From the NCBI GenBank assembly GCA_049968235.1, contig JBMFRC010000001.1, positions 256,001 to 320,000 on the forward strand: DNA of 64,000 nucleotides, given 5' to 3'. The position numbers and the translations under genes were made by a program. This DNA is from Candidatus Hydrogenedens sp. Lineage in GTDB: Bacteria; Hydrogenedentota; Hydrogenedentia; Hydrogenedentales; Hydrogenedentaceae. The notes under the pieces are model-generated. The model was not told the DNA's origin. It worked only from the letters and a program-made list of their open reading frames with translations, and searched no databases. Shown here piece after piece: positions 11,173-43,939 of the stretch (the stretch's first letter is position 1; each line of letters starts with the position of its first letter).

Positions 11173-12207
11173 ATGAAAAAAACAGGATTTACTTTAATTG
11201 AATTGCTTGTCGTCATAGCAATCATAGGTATTCTTGCGGCGATATTATTGCCCGCATTAGCACGTGCTCGTGAGGCGGCACGCAGGTCCAGTTGTCAGAA
11301 TAACCTCAAACAATGGGGATTGGTCTTTAAGATGTATTCAAATGAATCGAAGGGTGAACGTTTCCCACCATTAGAATTAGAAGTAGCACAGCGAGAGGAT
11401 AATGGACAATGGAATTTATTTATTGCAGCAGGTCCGAAAGTAAAGGCTATTTATCCTGAATATCTAACAGACCCATCCATTGCTATTTGTCCATCCGATT
11501 CTCAAGACACAGTTAACGATACATTAAAGGGCGCTAGTTTCCCATCATTAGGGATTACGCCAAACGATTTTCATTTTGGTTTCTATCTCGGTGGAGGGAC
11601 CGGGGTTAATGTGATTGATGCCAGTTATGCCTATTTCGGCTGGGTATTCGACCGCATGGGAGATAGAGCCGAAGATTTAGTCCCCATAAATTCACTTCCA
11701 ACCGAAGTGCAAATGTTTGTAAATCTCATCGGAAATGTAAATTTAACAGGGGACCAACTCGTTCCTGCACAACTTCCGCTTGCTATTGCTCAAATGGCTC
11801 TTAACCATCCAAAGGGTATAGCAGCGTTACAAGCAGCAAATTCACATTCAGCCCCAAGCCCGGATCAAATTGCAGATTTAAATAATGGGGTGGATGGTGA
11901 TGTTTCTGGCAATTTACTTGCAGGCTACGGTAATGGTGGTTCAAATACTGTCTATCGTCTTCGTGAAGGTATTGAACGGTTCATGATTACTGATATTAAT
12001 AATCCTTCAGCAACAGCCCAAGCACAGAGCAGTATTTTTATCATGCTTGACCAATTAGGAACTGGTGGAACAACTGTTCTTTTCAATCACATTCCCGGTG
12101 GATGCAATGTGTTGTATTTAGATGGACATGTCGAATTTATTCGCTACCCGACAAAACAACCCATAAATCAAGGGGTTGCAAATATTATGGCTCTCTTCTC
12201 TGCATAG
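11173..12207 (+). CDS. Prepilin-type N-terminal cleavage/methylation domain protein, DUF1559 / H-X9-DG family (type IV pilin-like)
   Basis: N-terminus [29 protein letters not shown] is the class III signal/pilin motif. The C-terminal [13 protein letters not shown] matches the H-X9-DG signature. This family is abundant in Planctomycetes/Verrucomicrobia-like genomes. Confidence 0.75.
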
Positions 12208-17300: not shown

Positions 17301-20300
17301 TTAGCGTTGCCGTCTCCGCAGTGTGAATACACCTGCCAGTGCACTCAACGCACTAACTAGTGCTATACTCACGGCACCTGCAACAGGTATGCCACTGCCT
17401 TTCGTCAATGTTGCAACACTGCTATATATGACATCCGTCAGGTCATCACTTATCACACAGCGATATTGACCTACATCTTCCTCATTAAACGGCGTGAATA
17501 CAAGTGTATTCGATGTAGCACCGCTGATGTTACCGCCATTGGTCAGGTTCACCCACGCTTTACCACCTTCGCCATCAGATTTCTGCCACTGATAATGCAG
17601 TGTGCCGATACCACCTTGAGCGGTCACACTCATGGAGAAGTTATCGCCCGGTACCACTTCCGCATTGGATATATCACCGGTTATGGAGATATGATTGGCG
17701 ATACGGACACGAGCCTGACTTGACACATGCGTATTTACAAGGTCCGTAATTTCTACCTGATACATATAGGTACCCGGTGTTAATGTGGCTGGGTCAACTG
17801 TCAGGATAAATGTATTTTCTCCAAATTCAACAGAGCCACTATCTACCACAGACCCATTGCGTTTCCACTCATAGGTGTCATAACCGGGGATAAATATACC
17901 ACCGCTGATTGTTGCTCTCAGATCAAATGCTGAGGAATCTACATACGCATCCGCATTCTGCGGTTGCGCTACATACTGCAGGTATTCACCAACATACACG
18001 GTCCGTTCGACCGGTGTGCCCGTGTGTCCGCTATAATCTTTCGGTGTGTAGGTAATCACATACATGCCCGAAGTATTTACATCCACCGTGCCTACAATTT
18101 CTGTCAGAACAGTTACACCGCCCCAGCATGGGTCATCTGCGGTGTATCCCGGTTCAACCCACGGTGTTCCTAATTTCCACGGTAGCGGGTTAGCACCTTG
18201 CAATGTTACTACCGGCAAATCATTGTCCACGACTTCCACTGTGCGATAGACAATGGTTGTCTGCGGATTTTCTGGGTCATGGTCGATTACTTTGTATTCA
18301 ATCTGATATGTGCCGGGTTCGGCAATATTCAGTGTGCTGGTCACAATTACTTCTTCTGTCAAATCACCATCTTCAGGGTCTTGCGCCACATAACCCGGTT
18401 CGACATATTCTTCTTTACAATCAATGCTCATCGGATTATCGCCTAACAGCGTTATCTCCGGTGGCTGGTTCACAATAATCTTCACGACACGGGTCTTTTG
18501 TTCGGCTACATTACCATTGAGGTCTGTATAATCATAGGTTACAACATATTCACCTGCATCAGATGGCAATAATGGGCAATTGCTCGGCACGGCATCTCCA
18601 CCTACGACTGCTTCACCGGTACCATCGCAATTATCTGTCCAGAATGCACCTTCTTCAACATAACAATCAATATTTGCCACTAACAGGACATACGACGCAC
18701 CACGCAATTGGATTTCCGGTGGTGTTACATCGCGCACCGTTACTTGTGCCGTTGCAGATGCCTGATTGCCGTTTACATCATAGGCTGTCAGATTTACTGT
18801 CTGCGGGGTTAACCGGTCAGCACAGGTAAATGTCGTCCGGTCTAATTCAAGATGGTCAATACTGCAATTATCTGTTGTGCCATTATCTACATCTGCCGGG
18901 ACAATAGTTGCCTGATTGGTCTCATCGAGGTCAACCGTAATATTCTTTGTTACCACAGTAGGTGGTAAATTATCCTCAACCATTACGGTCGCCAGACAGG
19001 TATTCTGCAAGTTCGCTCCATCCGTCACTGTCAACAACACCTGATTCTGTCCAATATTGGCACAGGTATATGTTGTTGGCGGAATGCTTAAGCTCAATGG
19101 ACCGCAGTTATCTGTGCTACCACCATCCAATTCGCTTGCAGTAAGTGTGTATTGTCCTGAAGAATTCAGATAGACTGTAATATTCGCACATACCGCTGTA
19201 GGATTGGTTACATCATTTACCGTTATCGTAGCATCGCATGTGCCCTGAGAGCCTGCATAGTCTATCACCGTTACTGTCCTCTGTGTGCTCGGTCTATCAC
19301 CACAGGTGAGGTTTACATTTTCCTGACCACTTACCACTATTTTCCAGATGCCACCGGGCACTGTGCTATTTGCGATGTCCAGTAACGAATTTGCAGGTAT
19401 GATCTGATTACCAGTCTCGTCTAAATCAACGGATATATTCTTGCAAACCAGGTTCATCGGTTGTTTCACCAATTCATACGCACCGCGGTCAGACGCAGAA
19501 TCTTGCGGTCTCGACACACCCTGGATATCGTAGTTCGGACTCGTTAGTGTCGAAGCATCAACGAACGGCGAAGCATTCGTCAATTTGAATGTCGGAGGTG
19601 GGAACACGTTATTGAACAGTGGGTCAACCGTCTGTGATGTATCACTTTCGAGTATCTGTAAGCCCGCACAAGACGGATTCGAAGCAGGGCAGAAGGTCTC
19701 TATGCAACCTGGTACATTCTGCCAGAAGATACTGCTATGAACCTGACCCGAACCCGTCGTATTATAGTTAAATATAGCTGAACTGGTTAAGCCATATAGG
19801 CCACCTGTTGTATTATCAACCGTATTACCTACAAATGTACTGAATTTAATTGTCGGGTCTGCCATATTGTTGAATATAGCACCACCACCACGCATCGGAT
19901 TACCCGCACTATCCAATAACCGATTCGCTCTATTATTGTAGAACACGCAGTTGATTATCGTAGCATTAGCGGAACTACCGCCATAAGATTCATTAGAAAT
20001 CGCACCACCAGATACTGCCGCAATATTGTCATAGAATGTGCAGTTCGCAATTACCGGTTGTGATATCCAGTTATACAAACCCGCACCACGCCATGTATGA
20101 TAATCGCCGGCAACACCGCTGGCACGACCACCACGGATATCAAAGCCATCTATACGAACATTTACGGCAGGTTGTGTTGAACTACCTACAACAATAACAT
20201 GATACGCAGGAGAACCGCCACGCGATACGGAACCATCGATAATTGTTACTACATTCCGCACTGCACGTTTCGCACGAATATCCTCTTGCATGCCCCAGTA

Positions 20301-22769
20301 GCCTTCAAACCCACCATATATCTGAACATTACTTTCTAAAATCAGGGAACCATCTACATTTGCAGGCCCGCCCCATGGAATTGTTCTCAATTCATTATAC
20401 ACATATCCACCGCCATTTGGACCGCCCGCGACCCAGACTTCACCCGCTCCGTCTGCTGCAGCCGCATCTATTCCTTCTTGAATCGTCGCAAATGCAGTCT
20501 CCCAGGTCAAACCATTCGCAACACCGCCCGGTCTCGGTGCCATCTTATCTACACGATATACTGAACCCGTAGGCAAACCGACACCTAAATATACTTCCGA
20601 AGTATATACAAATGAGCCATAAGTTGCTGAGGAAATCTTGCACCGATACCAGCCCGTATCCGTCGGCTGAGCATTGGTTATCGGTAATGACACGGGTCCC
20701 GGACCGGGGATAACTGGACCAATGGCAACTCTGCCTTTCTCCCACTGGAACCGTAAATCTGCACCACCACCCGGTGATATATCGCCATCGCAGGTGAACA
20801 CATGACTATCGCCAATATCAATCATTGCACCTGACGGCTGTAAGGTTACGACTGGCGTGGGCGTGTTTACCTGAACACCCGCCGTACCAGTCGTTATAGA
20901 GTTACCAAATGTAACTGAGGTAATAACACATCGATACAAGCCTGCATCATTTGACGTCGCGGAACTCACATTATAGACATTATTACTATCACCATCAGAT
21001 ACATTCTCCCAGTTACTTCCGCTGAATGTTCTATCTATCTGCCATTGATAACTTAATGTCCCGCTATTTTGCGTCGCATTGCAGGTAATTGAAAATGGAT
21101 TCAACGCGGTAATTGGTGGAGTTGGGTTTACTGTCGGCTGTTGTGTTATGGTAATTGGCGGAGCCTGAACCACCACTTCTACCGTATTGGAATACATAGA
21201 AGCCTTAGTATACGGGTCCGCAATCAGGCAACGGAAGTACCTGGAGCCAATCCAGTCCACCGGATCGATTACCAATACACGCACATTTCCGCCACTCACC
21301 GGCGTAGTCACATTATCCGGGGTGCTACCATAATACCATTGATAATTGAACCGTGGCGTAGAAGGCGGTAAATTATTCGGTGTCCAGATAGTGCCATCAC
21401 CGTTATCCACTGCCACGCTTAATGTCCAGCTATCCTGACCCCAGGTCAACGGCGGACTGGTGCGACCAACTGGCTGGGTCTCCAACCATAATGTGCTCGG
21501 GAAGATGTTTTCACGCAATGCCCATTCCGCTACACCCTGGGCTATAGTCGCATAAACATTGTTCGAATTGAATGTATCAGAATAAGTCAAAAAGTTCGTC
21601 CTGCCATCACCGTTCAAATTACCCGTTGATGGAGCCACCGCTAAATAACTCGTCTGTGGCTGGAACTGGCTCGCCACAACATTGTTATTCGCAAAGTTTC
21701 TAATTGAATTACATACATCACCCTCCAATATGGTCACATGAAGGTCAATAGTACCAATAGGTGAATTCACAGGAACCGTGAAGTCCACCGTCGACGTATT
21801 CCCCCACGGATTGCACACAGTCTTTGACTCCGGCTCCGGTGCATATAATTCAGGATTAGCACCTATAACTATATTCTCAGGAGGAATAGAAGTTAACATT
21901 TTAACAAACTTAGGGTCTTCCATCCCTTTCGTCATATTGCGGATAATATCATCTAACAAATCATTAATAATAATTTGTATCATCTTTCCATACCAGGAAT
22001 ACCAATAATCCATAGCCTTCTGGTCGCCTAAGGTCATATATGCAGCAGTAAAATTAATTAGTGCATCATCCAATCTCGGGTCCGCATCCTCTGCTAAGGG
22101 ACCACCTTTCTCATTTTTCAAAAAAGAAGGCACATCAAAACTTACATCCTGAGATATTAAACATCCCAAACCCGCTTTTAATGTTAGCGTCATTGTTGTA
22201 TTTGTAGTTAAATTTACAGTTTTATCATTGCCACAGCCTGCTATATCTGCACGAAGCCGAACTTGTTGTATGGTAAGTTCTGTATTGCGTGCACGCGTGA
22301 TGTTATTCTGGAAAGCAGTGCGGATAGCATTAACGGTTCCAGAGGGTAAGTTTGTGTTTCTGTTCGGGTCGAGCACCGCATCAAGCAATGCAAAATACCG
22401 CGAATCCACTAACTTAAAACCAGTGCCCTTTGGCGTATAGGACCAAGCACCACTTGGACCAATATTCGTAGTTCCGTGGTCGCTCCTACCATCTGAACCA
22501 TCCCAATACGGACCATCCTGTCCCGTCACCTGACGCCAGTACGCGCTGTTAGCACCAGCACAGTCCTGCGTCCATTGCGGACACAAGCCTAACGACACAA
22601 GCATGTCGTCTATGATATTGTCCATTTCACTTGCCATTTGTTCTAAACTGTTCCAATACTCCGTCCCGTTGTAATACATATACGGGTGCGCCTGTGCCGG
22701 CATGCTTACAAACATAAAAACAAATAACGCCAGCACACACAAGGTTGGGATAAATAATTTTTTACTCAC
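17301..22769 (-). CDS. Giant secreted surface protein (1822 aa) with Ig-like repeats, Pmp-like parallel beta-helix repeats and a C-terminal hydrophobic anchor
   Basis: GTG start with SD GAGAAGGG, then signal peptide MSKKLFIPTLCVLALFVFMFVSMPAQA. Multiple Ig-like repeats (..YRCVISDD.., ..WYRCKISS..). The central region has GGAI/GGGAI and FxxN motifs (FYDN, FYNN, FVGN, FWQN) typical of chlamydial Pmp-type beta-helix repeats. HYR-like NITVDLDETxxxxI repeats are present. The C-terminus is GSGIPVAGAVSIALVSALSALAGVFTLRRRQR. Confidence 0.7.
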   Translation of the reverse strand: MSKKLFIPTLCVLALFVFMFVSMPAQAHPYMYYNGTEYWNSLEQMASEMDNIIDDMLVSLGLCPQWTQDCAGANSAYWRQVTGQDGPYWDGSDGRSDHGTTNIGPSGAWSYTPKGTGFKLVDSRYFALLDAVLDPNRNTNLPSGTVNAIRTAFQNNITRARNTELTIQQVRLRADIAGCGNDKTVNLTTNTTMTLTLKAGLGCLISQDVSFDVPSFLKNEKGGPLAEDADPRLDDALINFTAAYMTLGDQKAMDYWYSWYGKMIQIIINDLLDDIIRNMTKGMEDPKFVKMLTSIPPENIVIGANPELYAPEPESKTVCNPWGNTSTVDFTVPVNSPIGTIDLHVTILEGDVCNSIRNFANNNVVASQFQPQTSYLAVAPSTGNLNGDGRTNFLTYSDTFNSNNVYATIAQGVAEWALRENIFPSTLWLETQPVGRTSPPLTWGQDSWTLSVAVDNGDGTIWTPNNLPPSTPRFNYQWYYGSTPDNVTTPVSGGNVRVLVIDPVDWIGSRYFRCLIADPYTKASMYSNTVEVVVQAPPITITQQPTVNPTPPITALNPFSITCNATQNSGTLSYQWQIDRTFSGSNWENVSDGDSNNVYNVSSATSNDAGLYRCVITSVTFGNSITTGTAGVQVNTPTPVVTLQPSGAMIDIGDSHVFTCDGDISPGGGADLRFQWEKGRVAIGPVIPGPGPVSLPITNAQPTDTGWYRCKISSATYGSFVYTSEVYLGVGLPTGSVYRVDKMAPRPGGVANGLTWETAFATIQEGIDAAAADGAGEVWVAGGPNGGGYVYNELRTIPWGGPANVDGSLILESNVQIYGGFEGYWGMQEDIRAKRAVRNVVTIIDGSVSRGGSPAYHVIVVGSSTQPAVNVRIDGFDIRGGRASGVAGDYHTWRGAGLYNWISQPVIANCTFYDNIAAVSGGAISNESYGGSSANATIINCVFYNNRANRLLDSAGNPMRGGGAIFNNMADPTIKFSTFVGNTVDNTTGGLYGLTSSAIFNYNTTGSGQVHSSIFWQNVPGCIETFCPASNPSCAGLQILESDTSQTVDPLFNNVFPPPTFKLTNASPFVDASTLTSPNYDIQGVSRPQDSASDRGAYELVKQPMNLVCKNISVDLDETGNQIIPANSLLDIANSTVPGGIWKIVVSGQENVNLTCGDRPSTQRTVTVIDYAGSQGTCDATITVNDVTNPTAVCANITVYLNSSGQYTLTASELDGGSTDNCGPLSLSIPPTTYTCANIGQNQVLLTVTDGANLQNTCLATVMVEDNLPPTVVTKNITVDLDETNQATIVPADVDNGTTDNCSIDHLELDRTTFTCADRLTPQTVNLTAYDVNGNQASATAQVTVRDVTPPEIQLRGASYVLLVANIDCYVEEGAFWTDNCDGTGEAVVGGDAVPSNCPLLPSDAGEYVVTYDYTDLNGNVAEQKTRVVKIIVNQPPEITLLGDNPMSIDCKEEYVEPGYVAQDPEDGDLTEEVIVTSTLNIAEPGTYQIEYKVIDHDPENPQTTIVYRTVEVVDNDLPVVTLQGANPLPWKLGTPWVEPGYTADDPCWGGVTVLTEIVGTVDVNTSGMYVITYTPKDYSGHTGTPVERTVYVGEYLQYVAQPQNADAYVDSSAFDLRATISGGIFIPGYDTYEWKRNGSVVDSGSVEFGENTFILTVDPATLTPGTYMYQVEITDLVNTHVSSQARVRIANHISITGDISNAEVVPGDNFSMSVTAQGGIGTLHYQWQKSDGEGGKAWVNLTNGGNISGATSNTLVFTPFNEEDVGQYRCVISDDLTDVIYSSVATLTKGSGIPVAGAVSIALVSALSALAGVFTLRRRQR

Positions 22770-23608
22770 GGCTTGAACCCTTCTCGTTAAAGGTTAAAAA
22801 TTATTAAATTATTATTAAAATCTAAAACATAATCAAGATGCGATAAATTACATCTTAATTGCAATTGCAACATTGAAAAATAATATGTTTTTGATACGAA
22901 GAAAGTCAAATATCGTTAACCTTTTTTTTATTCGTTTCGTTAATATTCAATTTAACTGCAGCCTCATCATATATATTGTTGTATATATACACTTCATTAT
23001 AACATCATATTATAATATACACTAAAAAAAGGAAAAAGTCAAGTCTAAAATATATTTTTTTTGGTTTTTAGCATATCCATTTTTCTAATTTATTGCATAA
23101 CAAGAATATATTAAAAGACCGATTATTCTATCCCTTAAATTAATATCTCCATGTCCTCCGTGGAGAAAAAAACATAATCAACCACAGTAACCACAGAGAA
23201 ATCATTACTCACTGCTCAACAATGCATAAAATAGTAAAGACGGAAGTTACTACTCTCCCCAGTTTGACTTATACCATCCCATCTACTCATCTACATTCCA
23301 ATTTCTTCCACAGGATTATCTCTTGCATCACTCTCAATCATTTCTCTTATCATGTCGGTTTCTGTTATGACTCTGCATAATTTAAAAACTCACCTGCTTT
23401 ACCTCTTTCATCATATTGCACATTTATCTTTCTCCTTACCGGGTAATTCACCTATTCCTTTTGTATAATATATACATTCTTCGTTTCATTTTTTTCTTTT
23501 TACTCTTCCTGTATATAATCTTTCATATACTATTTATTTTATCGTATATTTTTTTACTCAGAGGGTTTATATAATAATTTAAACCAATGAAGAAAGAGGC
23601 ATTTGAAC

Positions 23609-25743: not shown

Positions 25744-26595
25744 TTATTTCTTATGCTTTTTAACTTGTTTTTTACGGATGGTATCCATTCTTCTTGTTTT
25801 AATAATTTGTATCGCAATAATTCCTGAAATAAATATTAGAACAAAAATCAAAACAAGGATAATCTTTATCCCTTTCGCATTAGAAGAGGTCGTTTCTTCA
25901 ATAGGCGGTGAAGCAGGGGAACTATGGTTTGAATCTGAGGAAGTGTTATTGCCCGGAAAAAGAATTTCTCCGGGAAGGACATTACAATTGACAGCGTTCC
26001 CTTCCGGGTCTGCAAGAACAGTATTAGAAAGTTTGACAAGTTGCCTGCCCGCAAGCGTGCTGTCTTCTATTGTAATGCTAACAAAAAGGATAGTTCCTTC
26101 GGGTATAGATTGTTGATTAAGTCCTGCTATGATAGTTCGGTAGGTCTGATTTTTGATCTGGTTATAAGATACCATTTTGTTAGATTTCTTTGCAGATTCC
26201 GCCACGGACATGTTTGTAATTTTTGTCCCTGCGGGAATAATAATATCGAATTGTATGCCCGAAATGCGTTCAGAGGGTTCTATTTTCAGGTCAATAGGCA
26301 AGAGAATATCCCTCTGTCCCTGCTCACACTTGACTTTTAGTGGACATAATGTTGCGGGATAGGCAAAAAGGGGAAATATAAAACCCGTCAAAAGAAGGAT
26401 AAGTATCTTAGAAAATAGACTATTTTGTTTCCTTTTATCTATTTCTTTCTTAAATAGAATTTCTGTTCCTTTATCACAGCAGATACAGTGGTCAGGGTTA
26501 TTAATAATGTGATAGTTATGGATACGAAAATTAGTAATGAATAGTCTGTTGGTAATATATTTTCTTTTGCAATATTTGTCTCTATCGTTGTACAT
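25744..26595 (-). CDS. Cohesin-like domain protein with N-terminal TM/signal anchor and C-terminal TM anchor
   Basis: Cohesin-like segment ISGIQFDIIIPAGTKI...YRTIIAGLNQQSIPEGTILFVSITI, a Ser-rich linker, then a C-terminal TM helix with KK-rich tail. The start is uncertain because the ORF overlaps the upstream gene by 157 nt. Confidence 0.5.
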   Translation of the reverse strand: MYNDRDKYCKRKYITNRLFITNFRIHNYHIINNPDHCICCDKGTEILFKKEIDKRKQNSLFSKILILLLTGFIFPLFAYPATLCPLKVKCEQGQRDILLPIDLKIEPSERISGIQFDIIIPAGTKITNMSVAESAKKSNKMVSYNQIKNQTYRTIIAGLNQQSIPEGTILFVSITIEDSTLAGRQLVKLSNTVLADPEGNAVNCNVLPGEILFPGNNTSSDSNHSSPASPPIEETTSSNAKGIKIILVLIFVLIFISGIIAIQIIKTRRMDTIRKKQVKKHKK

Positions 26596-27743
26596 TCGTT
26601 GCTCCTTCCCCTGGTTGGAGATATATTGGATATATTTAGAGCAAAATAAGGATTTTGTAAGGTTTTGTTTGTATCATCAAGGGAAACTATGCGTATATCT
26701 GAATTATTTTCGGTAGTAGCGTTCATAGTAGGCAATGAAGATTTCTCCACAGTTTTTGTGAACGGAGATGGATGCGTCCCAGCAGTCCTACCTATAGGAG
26801 TTGGATTCAAATTTTCATTTTGAGGAACTTTGTTCTCAGTAATCAGGATAGTTCTATCATCAGGTATATATTGCTTTGCCCAAAAGTTACTTTTTTCGGG
26901 AATAGGCATAAGTTTCGGTGCATTCACATTATGTTTTTTATTTTCTACTTTCCTGCTATGTAAGAATGTATCTTCATTGTGGATATAGGGATTGCTTATG
27001 TTCGTTACAAAACCTGAAGAAGAGGTTGATGAGGATGCTTTTGTAGATGATGATTGAGAATATATGGGTCGGGTTTCCGTATTTGCTACTCTTTGGATAA
27101 CGGGTTTTACCTCTGTATTCATATCAGTAATATTTGTGTTTACATCGGATTGATTGTCTATTTGATGGTTCATTTCTGTTCCGGTAGAAGTGGTGGAATT
27201 ATTTGTATCGGAAGGAGGGATTTCTTCTGCAGGATTGTTATCTGTTGAAGTTTCTGAACCTTGACTACTGTTAACAGTTGCGGATACAGGTTGTGCCTGT
27301 GGAGAGGAAAGTTTTACCTGTAAGATATTAAATCCTGGTCCATTTGTCCCCTCTGACAGAGCATTAAACTGCACTGTGAATAATTCTCCACTGGGAATTG
27401 GATGGTTATTCAATCCGATGATAAGAACTCGCAAAAGACCATACATTTTCGCAACTTGTAATTGTTTACTACTTGCCCATAAAGTGTCTCCCGGGAATGC
27501 AGATACAAATTCCCAATTCTGGGCATCATATCCACATTCCAATTGGATTCCACTTACTTCTTCTTCAGGCAAGACTGATAAAAATACATGAACAACGACC
27601 ATCGTTTCTCTTTGTTCCAGACTTGTGTCTAACATTGCAGGGAAAGATGAAATGTGTAAAAGCAAACATACTGCAAAGGGCAAAAAGAAACTCTTTTGCC
27701 TCATTTTAATAGATGATGTATATTTTCGCAATATGTTGCCCAC
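26439..27743 (-). CDS. Cohesin-like domain protein with long S/T/N-rich linker and C-terminal TM anchor
   Basis: Signal peptide (MRQKSFFLPFAVCLLLHISSFPA), cohesin-like segment VSGIQLECGYDAQNWEFVSAFPGD...LLRVLIIGLNNHPIPSGELFTVQFNA, about 250 aa of low-complexity S/T/N linker, then a C-terminal TM helix and KK tail. Confidence 0.5.
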   Translation of the reverse strand: MGNILRKYTSSIKMRQKSFFLPFAVCLLLHISSFPAMLDTSLEQRETMVVVHVFLSVLPEEEVSGIQLECGYDAQNWEFVSAFPGDTLWASSKQLQVAKMYGLLRVLIIGLNNHPIPSGELFTVQFNALSEGTNGPGFNILQVKLSSPQAQPVSATVNSSQGSETSTDNNPAEEIPPSDTNNSTTSTGTEMNHQIDNQSDVNTNITDMNTEVKPVIQRVANTETRPIYSQSSSTKASSSTSSSGFVTNISNPYIHNEDTFLHSRKVENKKHNVNAPKLMPIPEKSNFWAKQYIPDDRTILITENKVPQNENLNPTPIGRTAGTHPSPFTKTVEKSSLPTMNATTENNSDIRIVSLDDTNKTLQNPYFALNISNISPTRGRSNECTTIETNIAKENILPTDYSLLIFVSITITLLITLTTVSAVIKEQKFYLRKK

Positions 27744-27753
27744 AATATTTTCC

Positions 27754-28542
27754 CTATGTTGGACCTAAGGCAAACCCATCCTCCGTGCCAACTTCAGGAT
27801 GATAGGAACCATAGTTAAAAATTTGTATAAGTCGTAAGATTTCATATAACTGAATTTTCCAATCAGGACTTCCATAATAATCGCTATTGTGTGGAGAACA
27901 AGTTTGATTCTTACTCGTTACGCTGTATCCATCCTCCGTATCACACGAACAGTAGTATTCTTTAGAATTGTAGAATTGGATTACACGCAATAATTCGGTT
28001 AATGAAATAATCCAATCACGATTCGAGTCTGCACTGTGAAAAACACTCCTTTGAACGGTCAAATTCCCATTGATTAGAGAGACGGGAACAGAAGTTCCGA
28101 TAGGACTGGATAATATCGCACGACTTAATGAAACATCATAAATCCCCGCGGGAGTAGATGCACATACCTGTAAGGTTATCTGAGCAATACTCCCGCTGGG
28201 GATAATATTCTGGTTAAGTCCTGCAATGATAACTCGAGCCTGACCAGGAGTTACAATATTGTATTGCACCTGTTTTTGAGCCGAATTAGATGACGCACCT
28301 GCAATCACTGTTATTAGTTCACAGATATCAGGATTGTAGAGAATATCAAACTGGATAGCACTTACAGATTCACTACTGGACACGGTAAGCATTGCATTTA
28401 ACACAATTTGAGTTCCACTGTCCGCATACCCGCTTTCAATAGATAATTCTGCGGGATATGCGGAAGAGAAATACGAAAAATATCCGGATATAAATGCCAT
28501 CACAATAATCCTGATACTTCTGTAACTATCCAGTTTTCGCAT
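27754..28542 (-). CDS. Cohesin-like domain protein with C-terminal duplicated dockerin-like repeats (adaptor-like)
   Basis: Signal peptide, then cohesin-like VSAIQFDILYNPDICELITVIAG...ARVIIAGLNQNIIPSGSIAQITLQV, which resembles the CDFVYSYDPNVLEIIEIEPG / ITKDGVFATIV pattern of clostridial cohesins. The C-terminus has two repeats, DSNRDWIISLTELLRVIQFYN and GSPDWKIQLYEILRLIQIFN. Confidence 0.5.
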   Translation of the reverse strand: MRKLDSYRSIRIIVMAFISGYFSYFSSAYPAELSIESGYADSGTQIVLNAMLTVSSSESVSAIQFDILYNPDICELITVIAGASSNSAQKQVQYNIVTPGQARVIIAGLNQNIIPSGSIAQITLQVCASTPAGIYDVSLSRAILSSPIGTSVPVSLINGNLTVQRSVFHSADSNRDWIISLTELLRVIQFYNSKEYYCSCDTEDGYSVTSKNQTCSPHNSDYYGSPDWKIQLYEILRLIQIFNYGSYHPEVGTEDGFALGPT

Positions 28543-28545
28543 AAG

Positions 28546-29844
28546 TTATTCTTTGTTTTGATTTTCTGCGTAATCCAGTATTCCATTTCCATTTGCGTCA
28601 ATGTCCTGTTCATTAGGGATGCCATCTCCATCCCAATCCTGTTCAGTGCGGTTATCGGGGTCTAAATAATTAGGGATACTATCTCCATCACTATCTTCAA
28701 TAAAATCAGGGATACCGTTGTTGTTCAAGTCAAATTTGCAATGGTTCCCATTACAAATCTGATTTTCGATAAAATCCGGTATATGATTTCGGTTTGTATC
28801 TGTAACTTCGGGTATTTGCAAACTATCCAGCCATGCCATAATTTGCTGTTGGAGTTCAGTCTGGAACTGATTCATAATAAGGTTCGTGATGGACTCCGGT
28901 CCCGGTACTCCTAACTGGATAAGTGAATTTTTAATCATTTGTTGAAAGCATTGAATCAGAGGTAAAACCATCTCCGGATAGCCATCTATCTCAATCCGAT
29001 TTAATGAAGGGGTAAGAAGAGTATCCTTATGGGGTTGGATACATGTCCCTAAACTCTGGAGTAGCGTGTTTATTAAATTTTCATTAAATCCAAGTGTTTG
29101 TAAATAGGGAATTGACAGAAGTTGGGTTTTAATCTCGTTAATGAGTTGTTCATAAATATCCGGAATTTGATTACCATTTTCATCCATATCTGGCAGAGGC
29201 TCGGCAATTCTCCCCAATAAGTTCCTTAAATCGGGAATTGGGATATTGGATTGCTGTAAATTCAGATTGTTCAACTGTAAAGGCTTACCCGTGGATAATT
29301 GTAATAACGGGATAGCTAATGAATTTAAGGGACCTATCGGAGCAAGGATAGGAAAAGATTGTAAGCCATTTCCCGAATTGCTTATCATTCCAAAAGCCCA
29401 TGTGGTCCCAACAGGAAGAAGCATCTGGAATATCCCATCCGGAGATATTTCTGAAGTTATTATCCTGCCATCTTCTGAAAGGGCTACAAATAATGGAGAT
29501 GTTCCCTGTTGTTCATTGCCGAATGTAGAGGCTATTTGTCCTTCCAGAGGTTGGACCAATCCACCAGTTCCTAACACAGAATTTATCAGTGTTTGAATAT
29601 CAAGAACATCCACCATGTCATTCTGGTTAACATCTGCCATAGGAACAGGGGCATTGATTCCGATAGCGATATTAATTCCGTTCTGGACATCCAGAATATC
29701 AATTACTCCATCTTTATTAACATCGCCCGGTATAGCGTCAATTGCTCCCCATGATATAAATGGGAAAAGCAATAGGGCAAAGATTATAAATCTCTGGAGT
29801 AAATATATTTTCCCGCTTTGGGTTGTTTTTAACTTGTTATTCAT
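28546..29844 (-). CDS. Secreted dockerin-domain protein with C-terminal thrombospondin type-3-like Ca-binding repeats
   Basis: Signal peptide, then two canonical dockerin repeats (GDVNKDGVIDILDVQNGINIAIG and ADVNQNDMVDVLDIQTLINSVLG). The C-terminus has Asp/Asn-rich TSP3-like repeats (DTNRNHIPDF..., DLNNNGIPDFIEDSDGDSIPNYLDPDN..., DWDGDGIPNEQDIDANGNGILDY). Confidence 0.55.
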   Translation of the reverse strand: MNNKLKTTQSGKIYLLQRFIIFALLLFPFISWGAIDAIPGDVNKDGVIDILDVQNGINIAIGINAPVPMADVNQNDMVDVLDIQTLINSVLGTGGLVQPLEGQIASTFGNEQQGTSPLFVALSEDGRIITSEISPDGIFQMLLPVGTTWAFGMISNSGNGLQSFPILAPIGPLNSLAIPLLQLSTGKPLQLNNLNLQQSNIPIPDLRNLLGRIAEPLPDMDENGNQIPDIYEQLINEIKTQLLSIPYLQTLGFNENLINTLLQSLGTCIQPHKDTLLTPSLNRIEIDGYPEMVLPLIQCFQQMIKNSLIQLGVPGPESITNLIMNQFQTELQQQIMAWLDSLQIPEVTDTNRNHIPDFIENQICNGNHCKFDLNNNGIPDFIEDSDGDSIPNYLDPDNRTEQDWDGDGIPNEQDIDANGNGILDYAENQNKE

Positions 29845-29925
29845 ATCGAAAATCCTTCTAAAAAATATTATTTACTAATTTTATGAAACTTTATAGATAA
29901 TAAGAGAGAAATGACAAGATATGTG

Positions 29926-30417
29926 TTAGCAAACGGGAGGGGCATGACAGAGAAAGCCTGTTAGAAAGTAAGGTTCTGTTTTAAGTCTGCGACCTCTATC
30001 CTCCGGGATAGGGGACAAACGAGTGGCTTTGTACTCTGTTTCTTTGACAAAACCTGAATAAGGCTTGAAAATGTTACCTTTGCAAAAATTGGATATTGAT
30101 TGGCTATTAACTTGAACAAAAGCGACAGGAACCTGTGACCTCTTTCCCTGCCATTTCTTTTCCAACCGATTAAATAAAATCTGTAAATCTATAACATCAA
30201 TCTTATTGTCTCCATTCTGGTCTCCTATAGAAGCAAGAGAATTTCTCTGGAGTAGGGAATGCTGAAGTAAATTCAGGTCCAGAATGTCAATTTTCCCATC
30301 AAGATTTAAATCACCCGTTTTGTAATCACAAACATTTTGATTGGATAAACAAAAGGCGAACAACACCCCGCAGGAAAGAAGTAAATAAAATATTTTCTTG
30401 CCAATTAAAAACATCAT
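29926..30417 (-). CDS. Small secreted dockerin-domain protein
   Basis: Signal peptide, then two dockerin repeats (GDLNLDGKIDILDLNLLQHSLLQ and GDQNGDNKIDVIDLQILFNRLEK), followed by an approximately 80-aa C-terminal region of unknown function. Confidence 0.5.
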   Translation of the reverse strand: MMFLIGKKIFYLLLSCGVLFAFCLSNQNVCDYKTGDLNLDGKIDILDLNLLQHSLLQRNSLASIGDQNGDNKIDVIDLQILFNRLEKKWQGKRSQVPVAFVQVNSQSISNFCKGNIFKPYSGFVKETEYKATRLSPIPEDRGRRLKTEPYFLTGFLCHAPPVC

Positions 30418-32970: not shown

Positions 32971-33047
32971 TGGCGCGCCCGGCGGGATTTGAACCCACGG
33001 CCCCTTGCTCCGGAGGCAAGTGCTCTATCCAACTGAGCTACAGGCGC
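32971..33047 (-). tRNA. tRNA-Arg (anticodon CCG)
   Basis: The reverse complement reads GCGCCTGTAGCTCAGTTGGATAGAGCACTTGCCTCCGGAGCAAGGGGCCGTGGGTTCAAATCCCGCCGGGCGCGCCA. It has a 7-bp acceptor stem, GTTCAAATCC T-loop, anticodon loop CTCCGGA and an encoded CCA. Confidence 0.85.
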
Positions 33048-35695: not shown

Positions 35696-36445
35696 ATGCA
35701 ATGGGAGCGCATAAAAAACAATCAAAGTAAAATAATTCCTTTGTCCGGAATTTATATTTTTGTTCATACTGCAACATTTTTTGTATATGAACTTTTGTCA
35801 TTAAATTTAGAACTTTCATCGGGGAATTTTCCGAATGATATCTTATTATCCCTTGTAGATGTCGTTAGAGAACTGGTGCTTTGTGCCATTTTAGGTGGGT
35901 TACAATCTATCGTTTTTGCCCGGCTTGGTGTAATCTTAGAATTTCCTATCTGGCGTTGTAAAGATGATAAAGAAGCACTAAGTCGTTTCTTCCTGCTCTG
36001 GTTTGGAATTAATGCAGGACTAATAACCATCAATCGTGTAGCCAATATATTAGCAGAAAAAGGAATTTCAGACCTTGCTTTTTTATTGGGAGGAGTAGGA
36101 CTTATTGCAAATATTATTTATTTACCCCTTACTGTTTGCTGGATGTATTCTGGCGAAAAACTCTCTGAGGATGACTCTTTTCTTCGTGTGTTTCGTCCTA
36201 TCACACGACAATGGGGAGAAACATTAGGAATGTGGGCGATTCTCAGCATTTCCCTTTTTGTTGCTCTGTTTATATTAGGACTGCCCCTATTCCAGGAATC
36301 CTCCATTTTTACAGTTGTCATAAAAACAATTATAATTATACCTCTGGCAGGAATAGACATTTTTGTATTTTGCTGGACATGGCTGTTATGTATTCAGTGT
36401 AGAATTCAAGGATTGGATGAGGATGTATCATTAGATGATTTTTAA
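35696..36445 (+). CDS. Hypothetical polytopic membrane protein
   Basis: 249 aa with about 6 predicted hydrophobic helices and no recognisable motif. It lies between the PilZ gene and the sugar-nucleotidyltransferase gene. Confidence 0.35.
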   Translation: MQWERIKNNQSKIIPLSGIYIFVHTATFFVYELLSLNLELSSGNFPNDILLSLVDVVRELVLCAILGGLQSIVFARLGVILEFPIWRCKDDKEALSRFFLLWFGINAGLITINRVANILAEKGISDLAFLLGGVGLIANIIYLPLTVCWMYSGEKLSEDDSFLRVFRPITRQWGETLGMWAILSISLFVALFILGLPLFQESSIFTVVIKTIIIIPLAGIDIFVFCWTWLLCIQCRIQGLDEDVSLDDF

Positions 36446-42313: not shown

Positions 42314-43921
42314 TTAATCTTTAGTGGGTTTCTCTACTTTGTAAATAGAATTCCATAATAACGAATGATGTTTCCATAAAGTATCTTTAGAACTATACAC
42401 AGGGACACCATTTTCAATCCGAAACAATTCGGGATTTAACAATACAGGATTTACAGATATTTTCGTAAGCACAATATCGGAAAGTATGTATTGAGAACCA
42501 ACAGAACTCGATAAATCAAATTTAAATATTCGTGAAAAGAAAGTATCTTTATAAATATGTCGATATTGGAAAGAATTTGATACGACAATATAATCGATAT
42601 CATATTGTTTAATAAATTCCTCTTCATTTTGTTCTTTTAGCAAACATGGGAAAATTTCCCCTCCCACAATACCGTCCACACTTATTAATTGGGCATTCGT
42701 ATTGAACTGAAACTGTATTTCATAAATTAATATTTTGCTTTTTTCATGGATACCCAATCTCCGAATTTCCTCTGCAAAATCATTTCCTAAGATACGGTCA
42801 AAACTGTACTTATAGTTTTCGGGTTTATTTAATTGCAAATGTTGATATATAGCAAATACAAACAGGGGCAACATAATAATAATTGCTATCTTTGAATATT
42901 TTGAAAAATGTCTTCCTATCTCCATTGCAATCCATGGAAACAATACAGGGACCAATGTTAGCAAATATCTGTTTGAGTAAAGCATAGGAGGAAAAAGAAG
43001 GTAAATAAATACCAGAAGTACACTACTAAAAAACATAATATTTTGTATTTTATCATTGGAAATAAGTTTAAAAATGTCTAGAAAGACCAGAAGAATAAAT
43101 AGAGGTAACACAAAAAGTAACGCGGGAGAAAACCGATATAAATCACCAATGGAAATTACTATTTTCTCTACATAGGAAATATCTTTATTTTCTAATGAAC
43201 GGATAAAACGCCCTAAAATAGAAGAAGGTGAAAGGATACCTGTCATCACGAATAAATATCCATAAACGACTACCGGGCTTGATAAACCTAAAATAAGATA
43301 TTTCCCAAATATTTTTCTATTCTCTGAAATTAATAAAAGTGCAGTAACAAAAAGCAGAAAATATTCTGGACGAACAAGAATAGAACATCCTGCGAAAAAG
43401 ATACCTGCTTTGTTCCATTTTATTTTCAATAAGAATAATGCAAATGTGGGGATAAAAATTATTAATGCAGTTTCGTATAATTGTGTAGAAGATATAAAGA
43501 GAGAATAAACAAACATATAGGAAAGAATTAAGAATAAAACAATAAATATTTTTTCCTTTTTTTGCATCGGGAATTGCTCATTGCCAATGCATATATAGAC
43601 ATTCAGGAGTACTCCTCCAAGGATAAAAATCTTATTTACATAAGTAGCAAATACCAGCCATTTTTCAAACCCCAAAAAATAATAAGGAATGGAATTTAAC
43701 ATGACCCAGAGAGGAGAGGTCGCTCCATGCTTTACTTCATAACCAAAGACAAAAGGTTTGGGGAAAAAATCACGAATAAAAGTAAAATATATAGAAGCAT
43801 CGCCATGAATTCGTGTTTTGTGAAGATAAAGAATAAAAAGAAGAAAGATAACAGGAAGAGTTAGCGATATACAATATATGACTTTTCCCTTTTGAAAATG
43901 TTGCGGATATAAATGATACAT
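42314..43921 (-). CDS. Polytopic membrane protein, putative GT-C-fold glycosyltransferase
   Basis: 535 aa. About 11 hydrophobic helices occupy the N-terminal two-thirds, followed by a soluble C-terminal domain of roughly 160 aa. The architecture resembles ArnT/PMT-like GT-C enzymes, but no secure motif is seen. Confidence 0.35.
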   Translation of the reverse strand: MYHLYPQHFQKGKVIYCISLTLPVIFLLFILYLHKTRIHGDASIYFTFIRDFFPKPFVFGYEVKHGATSPLWVMLNSIPYYFLGFEKWLVFATYVNKIFILGGVLLNVYICIGNEQFPMQKKEKIFIVLFLILSYMFVYSLFISSTQLYETALIIFIPTFALFLLKIKWNKAGIFFAGCSILVRPEYFLLFVTALLLISENRKIFGKYLILGLSSPVVVYGYLFVMTGILSPSSILGRFIRSLENKDISYVEKIVISIGDLYRFSPALLFVLPLFILLVFLDIFKLISNDKIQNIMFFSSVLLVFIYLLFPPMLYSNRYLLTLVPVLFPWIAMEIGRHFSKYSKIAIIIMLPLFVFAIYQHLQLNKPENYKYSFDRILGNDFAEEIRRLGIHEKSKILIYEIQFQFNTNAQLISVDGIVGGEIFPCLLKEQNEEEFIKQYDIDYIVVSNSFQYRHIYKDTFFSRIFKFDLSSSVGSQYILSDIVLTKISVNPVLLNPELFRIENGVPVYSSKDTLWKHHSLLWNSIYKVEKPTKD

Positions 43922-43939
43922 ACGAACTCCGAGTAAGCA

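What the first reader, a model, noticed from the sequence alone, without database searches (positions are those of the whole stretch)
17301..22769. 1822-aa Pmp-like / Ig-repeat surface protein with an unusual C-terminal anchor
The giant ORF combines a signal peptide, several Ig-like modules, HYR-like repeats and a central parallel beta-helix region with repeated GGA[IV] and FxxN tetrapeptides, the hallmark of chlamydial polymorphic membrane proteins. It ends in a hydrophobic helix plus RRRQR. That tail resembles a PEP-CTERM/exosortase-type or similar C-terminal sorting signal but lacks the PEP tripeptide. Pmp-like repeats together with the DUF1559 pilin argue for a PVC-type lineage. The sorting machinery for this tail is not in the window.
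Basis: partly seen in the sequence, partly recalled or inferred. Interest (0 to 1): 0.5.

Follow-up and report, generated by a model that had tools for sequence, protein, structure and literature searches.

The report
Giant surface protein, unmodelled sorting tail
This is a real 1822-residue secreted, adhesin-like protein of a Candidatus Hydrogenedens bacterium, and its C-terminal tail belongs to a sharply conserved tail family found on many surface proteins that matches no catalogued sorting signal and has no known processing enzyme.

Summary
The ORF (17301-22769, minus strand) is real. It is 100% identical to an NCBI MAG protein from Candidatus Hydrogenedens sp., which NCBI places in the FCB group, not PVC. 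The domain order is: signal peptide, a 400-aa domain with no solved-fold match, 3 Ig, a right-handed beta-helix ending in a choice-of-anchor Q domain, 3 HYR-like repeats, 3 DUF5011-type Ig-like domains, 2 Ig, then the tail. It is not a chlamydial Pmp. Chlam_PMP scores below threshold (18.2 vs 20.6 bits), only two GGAI motifs occur, and there is no autotransporter barrel. The tail is the interesting part. A profile of it finds 127 protein clusters among 1.84 billion, and all but one match ends within a few residues of the C-terminus. The consensus is G-[VIL]-P-[VA]-[AG]-G-x-L-G-L-A-x-L-A-x-x-[ST]-A-L-G-G-A-x-x-L-R-R-R-K, with a fixed 23-residue Pro-to-Arg spacing. These proteins have varied architectures, and 43% of pairs share nothing but the tail. 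No NCBIfam (June 2026) or Pfam sorting-signal model reaches its cutoff. The tail meets most published criteria for a tripartite C-terminal sorting signal. No cognate enzyme was found, and cleavage is inferred, not shown.

The parts
17301..22769 (-). Whole ORF, 1822 aa plus stop codon; GTG start
   Evidence: It is 100% identical to the NCBI protein P0001, 'immunoglobulin-like domain-containing protein [Candidatus Hydrogenedens sp.]'. Fifteen near-full-length relatives share 33-86% identity.
22689..22769 (-). Signal peptide, aa 1-27: MSKKLFIPTLCVLALFVFMFVSMPAQA, cleaved before HPYMYY
   Evidence: Read directly from the sequence. The AQA|HPY junction is conserved in the orthologs. The cleavage site itself is inferred.
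21462..22688 (-). N-terminal domain, aa 28-436, function unknown; mixed alpha/beta
20565..21461 (-). Three Ig-like domains (Ig_3 type), about aa 437-735
   Evidence: Pfam Ig_3 has E 3.6e-22 over 3 stretches; Ig_2, ig and V-set also hit. Domain boundaries are approximate.
19458..20564 (-). Right-handed parallel beta-helix, about aa 736-1104. It has two PMP-type GGAI / FxxN repeats and ends in a choice-of-anchor Q domain (aa 1050-1100, window 19470-19622).
   Evidence: NCBIfam NF041518 scores 35.5 bits against a cutoff of 25. Chlam_PMP scores 18.2 against 20.6 and Beta_helix 16.8 against 25.9. The AF2 model has pLDDT 79 and pTM 0.87. Foldseek hits beta-helix enzymes and Rhombotarget A with E 2e-4 to 5e-3.
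18717..19457 (-). Three ~80-aa Cys-containing HYR-like repeats, about aa 1105-1351
   Evidence: BLASTP against the T9SS protein P0016 (which carries Pfam HYR) gives 37% identity and E 3e-46. The Pfam HYR model itself scores only 10.1 bits against a cutoff of 21.7.
17985..18716 (-). Three Bact_surface_Ig-like (DUF5011) domains, about aa 1352-1595
   Evidence: Pfam PF16403 has E 1.1e-35 over 3 stretches.
17400..17984 (-). Two C-terminal Ig-like (I-set/Ig_3) domains, about aa 1596-1790
   Evidence: Pfam I-set has 2 stretches, the best at aa 1696-1776.
17304..17399 (-). C-terminal tripartite tail, aa 1791-1822: GSGIP(1795)VAG AVSIALVSALSALAGVFTL RRRQR. The parts are a G-[VI]-P-x-[AG]-G signature, a 22-aa small-residue-rich TM helix and an Arg cluster.
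   Evidence: The 60-tail profile scores it at 48.8 bits, while noise in the window scores at most 4.4 bits. All NCBIfam CTERM models fall below their cutoffs.

Best explanation
The gene encodes a giant Sec-exported, adhesin-like cell-surface protein of a diderm Candidatus Hydrogenedens bacterium. Its last 32 residues are a member of a previously unmodelled class of tripartite C-terminal sorting domain. The named members of this class all come from Hydrogenedentota. The consensus is G-[VIL]-P-[VA]-[AG]-G-x-L-G-L-A-x-L-A-x-x-[ST]-A-L-G-G-A-x-x-L-R-R-R-K-end.

Proposed mechanism:
1. The N-terminal signal peptide drives Sec export.
2. The C-terminal helix holds the protein in the cytoplasmic membrane, with the Arg cluster on the cytoplasmic side.
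3. A still unidentified membrane-embedded sorting enzyme recognises the G-[VI]-P-x-A-G signature and the conserved helix.
4. That enzyme removes the tail and hands the passenger on for surface attachment or export across the outer membrane. This parallels PEP-CTERM/exosortase, GlyGly-CTERM/rhombosortase and MYXO-CTERM/myxosortase.

Shown here: the architecture, the tail family, its strict C-terminal position, its modular spread over different passengers, and the absence of a match to any catalogued signal. Inferred: membrane topology, cleavage, the enzyme and the final location.
For: Tail family:
- A profile of 9 tails, searched against 1.84e9 cluster representatives, gives 127 hits at E<=1e-3. 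In all but one (P0099) the match ends within 0-6 residues of the protein end. Protein lengths range from 45 to 3450 aa.
- The Pro-to-first-Arg spacing is 23 residues in 117 of 124 tails. Conservation is P 100%, G+3 92%, G+6 92%, A+15 95%, G+18 100% and R+23 94%.
- Conservation is spread all round the helix (helical moment 4.5 of 62.6 bits). This argues against a one-face dimerisation motif.

Passengers:
- Passengers are diverse. Among 44 full-length members, Pfam finds Ig_3 (30), Bact_surface_Ig-like (13), HYR (7), PKD, Beta_helix, SprB, FG-GAP, fn3 and Flg_new, and some members have no hit.
- 43% of protein pairs share no BLASTP similarity outside the tail.

Other support:
- Two genomes carry two adjacent tail-bearing genes (L002 and L014).
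- Homologs of the HYR-like region in Bacteroidota carry a T9SS sorting domain instead. A 57%-identical ortholog, P0012, has a different tail. The protein also contains a choice-of-anchor Q domain.
- Generic TM+K/R tails of the neighbouring cohesin proteins score below 3.5 bits with the tail profile, against 33-55 bits for true tails.
- The organism appears to be diderm. LptF/LptG genes lie in the syntenic locus L002, and a DUF481 protein is encoded in the window (its outer-membrane role is from my own knowledge). An inner-membrane anchor would therefore not expose a 1800-aa adhesin at the surface.
- The tail meets the published criteria for such signals (bioRxiv 10.1101/2023.06.07.544157, section 5). 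Criteria 1, 3, 4, 5, 7 and 8 are met. Criterion 2 is met minimally, and criterion 6 is met for the full-length members.
Against: - No cognate sorting enzyme was found. No exosortase, rhomboid or CPBP family hit appears among the window ORFs tested, nor in the Pfam annotations of genes flanking six orthologous loci.
- Cleavage is not shown.
- 'Multiple occurrences per genome' rests only on two pairs of adjacent paralogs, because whole genomes could not be scanned.
- 107 of 114 passengers are linked through shared Ig-type domains. Part of the spread could therefore be an Ig+tail cassette travelling together.
- The conservation figures come from sequences selected by the profile itself, so they are inflated to some degree.
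- The window's own tail departs from the consensus at two conserved positions: Ser instead of Gly at +6, and Ala at +17.
Confidence: 0.6

Rival explanations
1. The tail is a permanent C-terminal membrane anchor and is not cleaved. The protein stays tethered to the cytoplasmic membrane. The conserved small-residue-rich helix (G/A/S at many positions) would serve tight helix packing, such as oligomerisation or docking to a membrane partner, rather than recognition by a protease.
For: - No sorting enzyme was found nearby.
- The helix is rich in Gly, Ala and Ser, as in GxxxG-type packing motifs.
- Other surface proteins in the same window, the cohesin proteins at 25744-27743, end in plain TM+basic anchors. 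This suggests C-terminal TM anchoring may be common in this organism.
Against: - The invariant Pro and Gly signature sits at the outer membrane boundary, with fixed 23-residue spacing and strict conservation of positions all round the helix. That is more than an anchor or a one-face packing motif needs.
- The tail is swapped for T9SS or other tails in homologs.
- The protein has a choice-of-anchor domain.
- In a diderm (LptF/G), an inner-membrane tether would keep a 1800-aa Ig-repeat protein in the periplasm.
Confidence: 0.28
2. The tail is a divergent PEP-CTERM signal in which PEP is replaced by [VI]-P-x, and it is processed by an ordinary exosortase encoded elsewhere in the genome.
For: - The tripartite layout and overall length are the same, and a Pro sits at the membrane boundary.
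- Weak sub-threshold hits appear to PEP_CTERM (12.7 bits, cutoff 16), IPTL_CTERM (17.5, cutoff 20.5) and the XrtH mid-cut motif.
Against: - TIGR02595 aligns only to the TM and basic part, and never reaches its cutoff on 11 tails tested.
- Only 1 of 126 tail regions contains the string PEP.
- The signature G-x-P-x-[AG]-G and the invariant GG near the cytoplasmic end are not PEP-CTERM features (the latter judged from my own knowledge of the TIGR02595 logo).
- No exosortase was seen in any sequence examined.
Confidence: 0.1
3. The protein is a chlamydial-type polymorphic membrane protein (Pmp), that is, an autotransporter adhesin.
For: Two GGAI and five FxxN motifs lie in a beta-helix. Chlam_PMP scores 18.2 bits over 2 stretches on the isolated region.
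Against: - The score is below the Pfam cutoff of 20.6.
- The C-terminus has no autotransporter beta-barrel. It consists of Ig domains plus a single TM helix.
- The organism is Hydrogenedentota, not Chlamydiota or PVC.
- Structurally, the beta-helix matches carbohydrate-active beta-helix enzymes and Rhombotarget A.
Confidence: 0.02

Closest known systems
PEP-CTERM / exosortase (TIGR02595; XrtA family)
   Same: Both have a tripartite C-terminal domain in a diderm: a short signature with Pro at the outer membrane boundary and no spacer, a TM helix, and an Arg cluster at the very end. Both occur on many otherwise unrelated secreted proteins.
   Different: There is no PEP tripeptide. TIGR02595 scores 8-12.7 bits against a cutoff of 16 and aligns only the TM and basic part. 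The signature here is G-[VIL]-P-[VA]-[AG]-G, plus an invariant GG five residues before the Arg cluster. No exosortase was found.
GlyGly-CTERM / rhombosortase, including the beta-helix substrate Rhombotarget A (PDB 9cdv, 9cdu)
   Same: The tail has a Gly-rich signature, a small-residue-rich TM helix and an Arg cluster. The passenger beta-helix of this protein gives Foldseek hits to Rhombotarget A (E 9e-4 to 5e-3, TM 0.38-0.44). The helix-destabilising Gly residues would suit an intramembrane protease (inference).
   Different: The GlyGly-CTERM model gave no hit at E<=10. The Pro-containing signature differs. The fold similarity is at the generic beta-helix level only. No rhomboid gene was seen.
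IPTL-CTERM (TIGR04174), the best-scoring catalogued model
   Same: The signature begins [IV]-P at the membrane boundary, followed by a TM helix and an Arg cluster. One family member, DYGIPAAGAIGIAVLALATALGGARALRKRD, aligns over the full model (1-27 of 27).
   Different: That alignment scores 17.5 bits against a cutoff of 20.5, and the other tails score 8-14.5 bits. The window's own tail gave no IPTL hit.
MYXO-CTERM and other Cys-type signals / myxosortases (CPBP family)
   Same: All are lineage-restricted tripartite signals. MYXO-CTERM remained an orphan signal, with no assigned enzyme, until myxosortases were proposed by phylogenetic profiling (bioRxiv 10.1101/2023.06.07.544157). The situation here is the same: an orphan signal.
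   Different: [quoted passage not shown] This family has none (Cys occurs in only 14 of 114 tails and not at a fixed position). MYXO-CTERM scores 10.7 bits against a cutoff of 20.
Chlamydial polymorphic membrane proteins (Pfam PF02415 repeats plus an autotransporter barrel)
   Same: Both have GGA[ILV] and FxxN repeats in a parallel beta-helix passenger.
   Different: Only two GGAI motifs occur, the score is below threshold, there is no beta-barrel translocator, and the phylum is different.
T9SS-sorted HYR-repeat proteins of Bacteroidota (e.g. P0016, Crocinitomicaceae)
   Same: The ~80-aa Cys-containing repeats are 37% identical (aa 1108-1350). Both are giant multi-repeat surface proteins.
   Different: Those proteins end in a T9SS type A sorting domain (PF18962). 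This one ends in the TM-type tail. This is the 'different anchor in another lineage' pattern.

Membership tests
Tripartite C-terminal sorting signal (criteria of Haft, bioRxiv 10.1101/2023.06.07.544157, section 5) | [quoted passage not shown] | tested here: met
   In 126 of 127 profile hits the match ends 0-6 residues from the protein end.
Tripartite C-terminal sorting signal (criteria of Haft, bioRxiv 10.1101/2023.06.07.544157, section 5) | [quoted passage not shown] | tested here: inconclusive
   Two adjacent tail-bearing genes occur in each of two assemblies: L002 (GCA_964588155.1) and L014 (ERZ21831019). They are paralogs, and whole genomes could not be scanned. The 64-kb window has only one.
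Tripartite C-terminal sorting signal (criteria of Haft, bioRxiv 10.1101/2023.06.07.544157, section 5) | [quoted passage not shown] | tested here: met
   G(-2) is 70%, P(0) 100%, G(+3) 92% and G(+6) 92%. These figures come from profile-selected sequences.
Tripartite C-terminal sorting signal (criteria of Haft, bioRxiv 10.1101/2023.06.07.544157, section 5) | 4) Hydrophobic TM segment and 5) a terminal cluster of 2-5 basic residues | tested here: met
   The tail has a 22-residue A/L/G/V-rich segment, then R-[RK]-[RK], mostly followed by 1-3 more residues.
Tripartite C-terminal sorting signal (criteria of Haft, bioRxiv 10.1101/2023.06.07.544157, section 5) | 6) Most members have an N-terminal signal peptide | tested here: inconclusive
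   The query has one. A crude rule finds a signal-peptide-like N-terminus in 61 of 126 representatives. Many representatives are metagenomic fragments, and no dedicated predictor was available.
Tripartite C-terminal sorting signal (criteria of Haft, bioRxiv 10.1101/2023.06.07.544157, section 5) | 7) Numerous pairs with no similarity outside the signal | tested here: met
   2266 of 5253 pairs (43%) have no BLASTP hit at E<1e-5 outside the tail. Pfam content is varied. By single linkage, however, 107 of 114 connect through Ig-type domains.
Tripartite C-terminal sorting signal (criteria of Haft, bioRxiv 10.1101/2023.06.07.544157, section 5) | 8) Homologs elsewhere lack the signal or carry a different one | tested here: met
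   Homologs of the HYR-like region carry T9SS sorting domains (PF18962). Ortholog P0012 (57% identity) has a different tail. A choice-of-anchor Q domain is present.
Tripartite C-terminal sorting signal (criteria of Haft, bioRxiv 10.1101/2023.06.07.544157, section 5) | A cognate membrane-embedded sorting enzyme, and actual cleavage | not testable with these tools
   No candidate was found in the window or in flanks of related loci. Finding one needs whole-genome phylogenetic profiling and proteomics.
PEP-CTERM (TIGR02595) | PEP signature, and a model score at or above the cutoff (16 bits) | tested here: not met
   There is no PEP. The window tail scores 12.7 bits, and eight consensus-like tails score at most 12.1 bits (two gave no PEP_CTERM hit at all). 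Only the TM and basic part aligns.
PEP-CTERM (TIGR02595) | An exosortase in the same genome | not testable with these tools
   Only 64 kb of the genome was available, and none was found in it.
Other catalogued C-terminal signals (LPXTG, GlyGly-CTERM, MYXO-CTERM, IPTL-CTERM, PGAP-CTERM, VPXXXP-CTERM, PGF-CTERM, etc.; NCBIfam release 20) | Model score at or above the curated cutoff | tested here: not met
   The best scores are PGAP-CTERM 17.7 against 25, IPTL 17.5 against 20.5 and LPXTG 13.8 against 15.9. GlyGly-CTERM and PGF-CTERM gave no hit at E<=10.
Chlamydial polymorphic membrane protein (Pmp) | Multiple PF02415 repeats at or above the gathering score | tested here: not met
   The whole protein scores 11.3 bits and the isolated region 18.2 bits, against a cutoff of 20.6. 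Only two GGAI motifs occur.
Chlamydial polymorphic membrane protein (Pmp) | C-terminal autotransporter beta-barrel | tested here: not met
   No autotransporter family appears in the Pfam scan at E<=1. The C-terminal 470 residues are Ig-like domains plus one TM helix.
Choice-of-anchor Q domain proteins (NF041518) | Model score at or above the cutoff (25 bits) | tested here: met
   The score is 35.5 bits, E 8.5e-9, at aa 1050-1100, covering model positions 6-57 of 58.

The most novel reading that the evidence does not exclude
The G-[VI]-P-x-A-G...ALGGA...RRRK tail defines an orphan protein-sorting system specific to Hydrogenedentota. Its processing enzyme would be a new sorting-enzyme family or subfamily, not a standard exosortase, rhombosortase or myxosortase. 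The system would deliver a whole repertoire of eukaryote-type Ig-domain adhesins to the surface of this uncultured phylum.
Probability: 0.2. Interest if true: 0.65.

Novelty: new variant of a known kind. Interest (0 to 1): 0.42.

Why it matters
C-terminal sorting signals define which proteins a bacterium puts on its surface. Each newly recognised class has led to a dedicated processing enzyme: sortase, exosortase, archaeosortase, rhombosortase and myxosortase.

Hydrogenedentota is a candidate phylum known here only from metagenome-assembled genomes. A profile for this tail would do three things:
- It would flag the phylum's surface proteome, which the hits here suggest is largely giant Ig-repeat, adhesin-like proteins.
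- It would improve annotation. These proteins are currently named only 'immunoglobulin-like' or 'DUF5011 domain-containing'.
- It would give a clean input for phylogenetic profiling to find the missing enzyme.

The finding is incremental rather than surprising, because dozens of such signal classes are already catalogued.

Tried and rejected
- **Word-indexed protein search with tail alignments.** The 40-aa and 90-aa profiles returned only short fragments (P0029 and P0030; P0029 and P0175). They did not even return the known orthologs. Searches were parameter errors.
- **Genome-collection scan with a tail alignment.** In one search, 590 stretches matched the pattern but only 1 locus was confirmed (L003). 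That is a 5.8-kb contig binned as Nitrospirales, possibly mis-binned. This used the only genome scan, so per-genome counts and a sortase search in whole genomes were not possible.
- **Metagenome scan.** One search returned 9 loci. All are relatives of the same Ig+tail proteins, and none has a neighbouring sortase-like multi-TM gene.
- **Exact look-up of the window protein's own contig.** This failed, so I could not walk beyond the window.
- **Neighbourhoods of six orthologs**. No partner gene is conserved. Synteny with L002 (helicase, AIM24, NUDIX, YceI, DUF1559) only reflects close relatedness.
- **Window membrane proteins.** The ORFs 35696-36445, 42314-43921, 47358-48365 and 51366-52964 show no exosortase, rhomboid or CPBP family hit.
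- **Histidine-brace idea.** I considered that the invariant mature N-terminus, His-Pro-Tyr, might form an LPMO-like histidine brace. I rejected this as unsupported. There is no second invariant His in the domain, and the predicted fold is a mixed alpha/beta fold, not a beta-sandwich.
- **Literature searches.** Hydrogenedentes combined with exosortase or PEP-CTERM found nothing.
- **A second cluster look-up for taxonomy.** It returned no names.
Full report
**1. The observation**

The ORF 17301-22769 (minus strand, GTG start, 1822 aa) is present exactly as described. It is a real gene. The translation is 100% identical to an NCBI MAG protein named 'immunoglobulin-like domain-containing protein [Candidatus Hydrogenedens sp.]'. 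Fifteen near-full-length relatives exist, with 33-86% identity. NCBI taxonomy puts Candidatus Hydrogenedentota in the FCB group.

The N-terminus is a classical signal peptide ending AQA|HPYMYY. This junction is conserved in the orthologs.

**2. Architecture**

The domain order along the protein is as follows.

- **About aa 437-735: three Ig_3 domains**.
- **About aa 736-1104: beta-helix region.** It models confidently (pLDDT 79, pTM 0.87) as a right-handed parallel beta-helix. Foldseek hits include the AlgE4 epimerase A-module, pectin methylesterases, phage tailspikes, polysaccharide lyases and Rhombotarget A (E 2e-4 to 5e-3, TM 0.25-0.44). The region ends in a choice-of-anchor Q domain (NF041518, 35.5 bits against a cutoff of 25).
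- **aa 1105-1351: three ~80-aa Cys-containing repeats.** They are 37% identical to repeats of a Crocinitomicaceae 'T9SS type A sorting domain-containing protein' that carries Pfam HYR. The HYR model itself scores only 10.1 bits against 21.7 on the query.
- **About aa 1352-1595: three Bact_surface_Ig-like (DUF5011) domains**.
- **About aa 1596-1790: two more Ig domains**.
- **aa 1791-1822: the tail.**

**3. The Pmp claim**

GGA[ILV] occurs twice (aa 921 and 962). FxxN occurs five times inside the beta-helix. Each count is reached by about 0.4% of shuffles, so the motifs are real. However, Chlam_PMP scores 11.3 bits on the whole protein and 18.2 bits on the isolated region, against a gathering score of 20.6. 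There is no autotransporter barrel, because the C-terminus is Ig domains plus one TM helix. The protein shares a generic beta-helix repeat with Pmps but is not a Pmp.

**4. The tail**

The tail alone was scanned against NCBIfam release 20 (June 2026). Every catalogued C-terminal sorting model falls below its cutoff:

| Model | Score (bits) | Cutoff (bits) |
|---|---|---|
| PGAP-CTERM | 17.7 | 25 |
| LPXTG | 13.8 | 15.9 |
| PEP-CTERM | 12.7 | 16 |

These alignments cover only the TM and basic half of the tail.

Yet the tail is conserved in orthologs that are only 33% identical overall. A 40-column profile of nine tails was searched with HMMER against 1.84 billion cluster representatives. It found 127 proteins at E<=1e-3.

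- In all but one hit, the match ends 0-6 residues before the protein's end. The proteins range from 45 to 3450 aa.
- The tails share a sharp consensus: G-[VIL]-P-[VA]-[AG]-G-x-L-G-L-A-x-L-A-x-x-[ST]-A-L-G-G-A-x-x-L-R-R-R-K.
- The invariant Pro sits exactly 23 residues before the first Arg in 117 of 124 tails. Conservation is G+3 92%, G+6 92%, A+15 95% and G+18 100%.
- These percentages are inflated somewhat, because the sequences were selected by the profile. The C-terminal position is not modelled by the HMM, so it is independent evidence.
- Conservation is distributed all round the helix, unlike a one-face packing motif.
- Eight consensus-like tails again reach no NCBIfam cutoff. The best is IPTL-CTERM, 17.5 bits against 20.5.
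- As a negative control, a 60-tail profile run over all ORFs of the window and 15 related loci scores true tails at 33-55 bits and everything else at 7 bits or less. That includes the generic TM+K/R tails of the neighbouring cohesin proteins.

**5. Is it a sorting signal?**

I applied the eight published attributes of tripartite sorting domains (bioRxiv 10.1101/2023.06.07.544157, section 5).

- **Position, signature, TM segment and basic cluster** are all met.
- **Passenger diversity** is met. 43% of 5253 pairs share nothing detectable outside the tail. Pfam content ranges over Ig_3, DUF5011, HYR, PKD, beta-helix, SprB, FG-GAP, fn3 and Flg_new, and some members have no hit. However, most members are connected through Ig-type domains.
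- **Alternative anchors in homologs** is met. Homologs carry T9SS domains, ortholog P0012 has a different tail, and a choice-of-anchor Q domain is present.
- **Multiple copies per genome** is shown only as two adjacent paralogs in each of two assemblies.
- **Taxonomic restriction** is suggestive only. The three hit clusters that carry names are all Hydrogenedens or Hydrogenedentota. One 5.8-kb contig is binned as Nitrospirales.
- **The cognate enzyme** was not found in the window or beside six orthologs. Whole genomes could not be searched with the tools.

**6. Mechanism**

The best reading (confidence about 0.6) has four steps:
1. Sec export of the protein.
2. Transient retention in the cytoplasmic membrane by the C-terminal helix, with the Arg cluster inside.
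3. Recognition of the G-[VI]-P-x-A-G signature and helix by an unidentified membrane-embedded enzyme.
4. Removal of the tail and transfer of the passenger to the cell surface.

The organism appears to be diderm. LptF/LptG genes lie in the syntenic locus L002, and a DUF481 protein is encoded in the window (its outer-membrane role is from my own knowledge). A permanent inner-membrane tether would therefore bury a 1800-aa Ig-repeat protein in the periplasm. For GlyGly-CTERM and MYXO-CTERM proteins, a type II secretion step carries the processed protein across the outer membrane. The nearby DUF1559/N-methyl pseudopilin-like gene is only a lead in that direction.

The main rival (about 0.28) is a non-cleaved anchor whose conserved small-residue helix serves helix packing. 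A divergent PEP-CTERM handled by an ordinary exosortase is a minor rival (about 0.1).

The passenger's function is inferred from its architecture only. It looks like an adhesin or a glycan-binding surface protein, because the beta-helix resembles carbohydrate-active folds.

**7. Verdict**

The finding is real and partly as described. The Pmp and PVC labels fall. The 'unusual C-terminal anchor' stands, and it turns out to be a member of a coherent tail family for which no catalogued model exists. This is a new variant of a well-known kind of system, with an orphan enzyme. Interest is moderate.

Noticed in passing
window 25744-30417 (minus strand): Five consecutive ORFs include cohesin domains (26439-27743, 27754-28542) and dockerin domains (28546-29844, 29926-30417). 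This looks like a cellulosome-like assembly module in a Hydrogenedentota genome. Two of the ORFs (25744-26595 and 26439-27743) end in plain TM+Lys/Arg anchors unrelated to the tail family. A cohesin protein with a TM tail also lies 4.3 kb upstream of the distant ortholog in L001 (4625-5704).
   Followed up: partly
window 21462-22688 (aa 28-436 of the ORF): This ~400-aa N-terminal domain has no Pfam, PDB-sequence or PDB-fold match despite a reasonable AF2 model. The mature N-terminus His-Pro-Tyr, directly after the signal-peptide cleavage site, is invariant or nearly so across orthologs down to 31% identity. Its function is unknown.
   Followed up: partly
L001 9054-9446 and L014 8937-9330: Two tandem, mutually similar 47-50-aa ORFs lie just upstream of the high-GC orthologs. 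Their pattern is MKHxRSxSxPxVEKAA..ILTIVGTVLT.VGG.LLSVAQ..GGG, which suggests small hydrophobic peptides. No counterpart lies upstream of the window gene, where 22770-23602 is an ~830-bp AT-rich intergenic region.
   Followed up: no
window 42314-45499 (minus strand): A 535-aa protein with about nine TM segments shows only a weak LA_3751/LA_3752-like glycosyltransferase hit (28.8 bits against a cutoff of 200). It sits next to an M14 zinc carboxypeptidase whose C-terminus looks dockerin-like (DVDGNGLGASDIQAIINQ).
   Followed up: partly
L002 5265-9248 and L014 15965-23524: In two relatives a second large beta-helix or Ig protein with the same tail lies immediately next to the ortholog, as a tandem paralog. 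In NCBI, the P0031-type paralog is named 'DUF5011 domain-containing protein [Candidatus Hydrogenedens sp.]'. The window lacks this neighbour.
   Followed up: partly
window 11173-12207; L002 20522-23137: A DUF1559 plus N-terminal-methylation pilin-like or pseudopilin-like gene lies about 5 kb from the tail-bearing gene. This arrangement is kept in the syntenic relative, which has two copies. It could be relevant if export across the outer membrane uses a type II secretion-like step, but the synteny may only reflect close relatedness.
   Followed up: no
window 32974-33047 (minus strand): A single tRNA gene is the only Rfam match at gathering threshold in the whole window.
   Followed up: no
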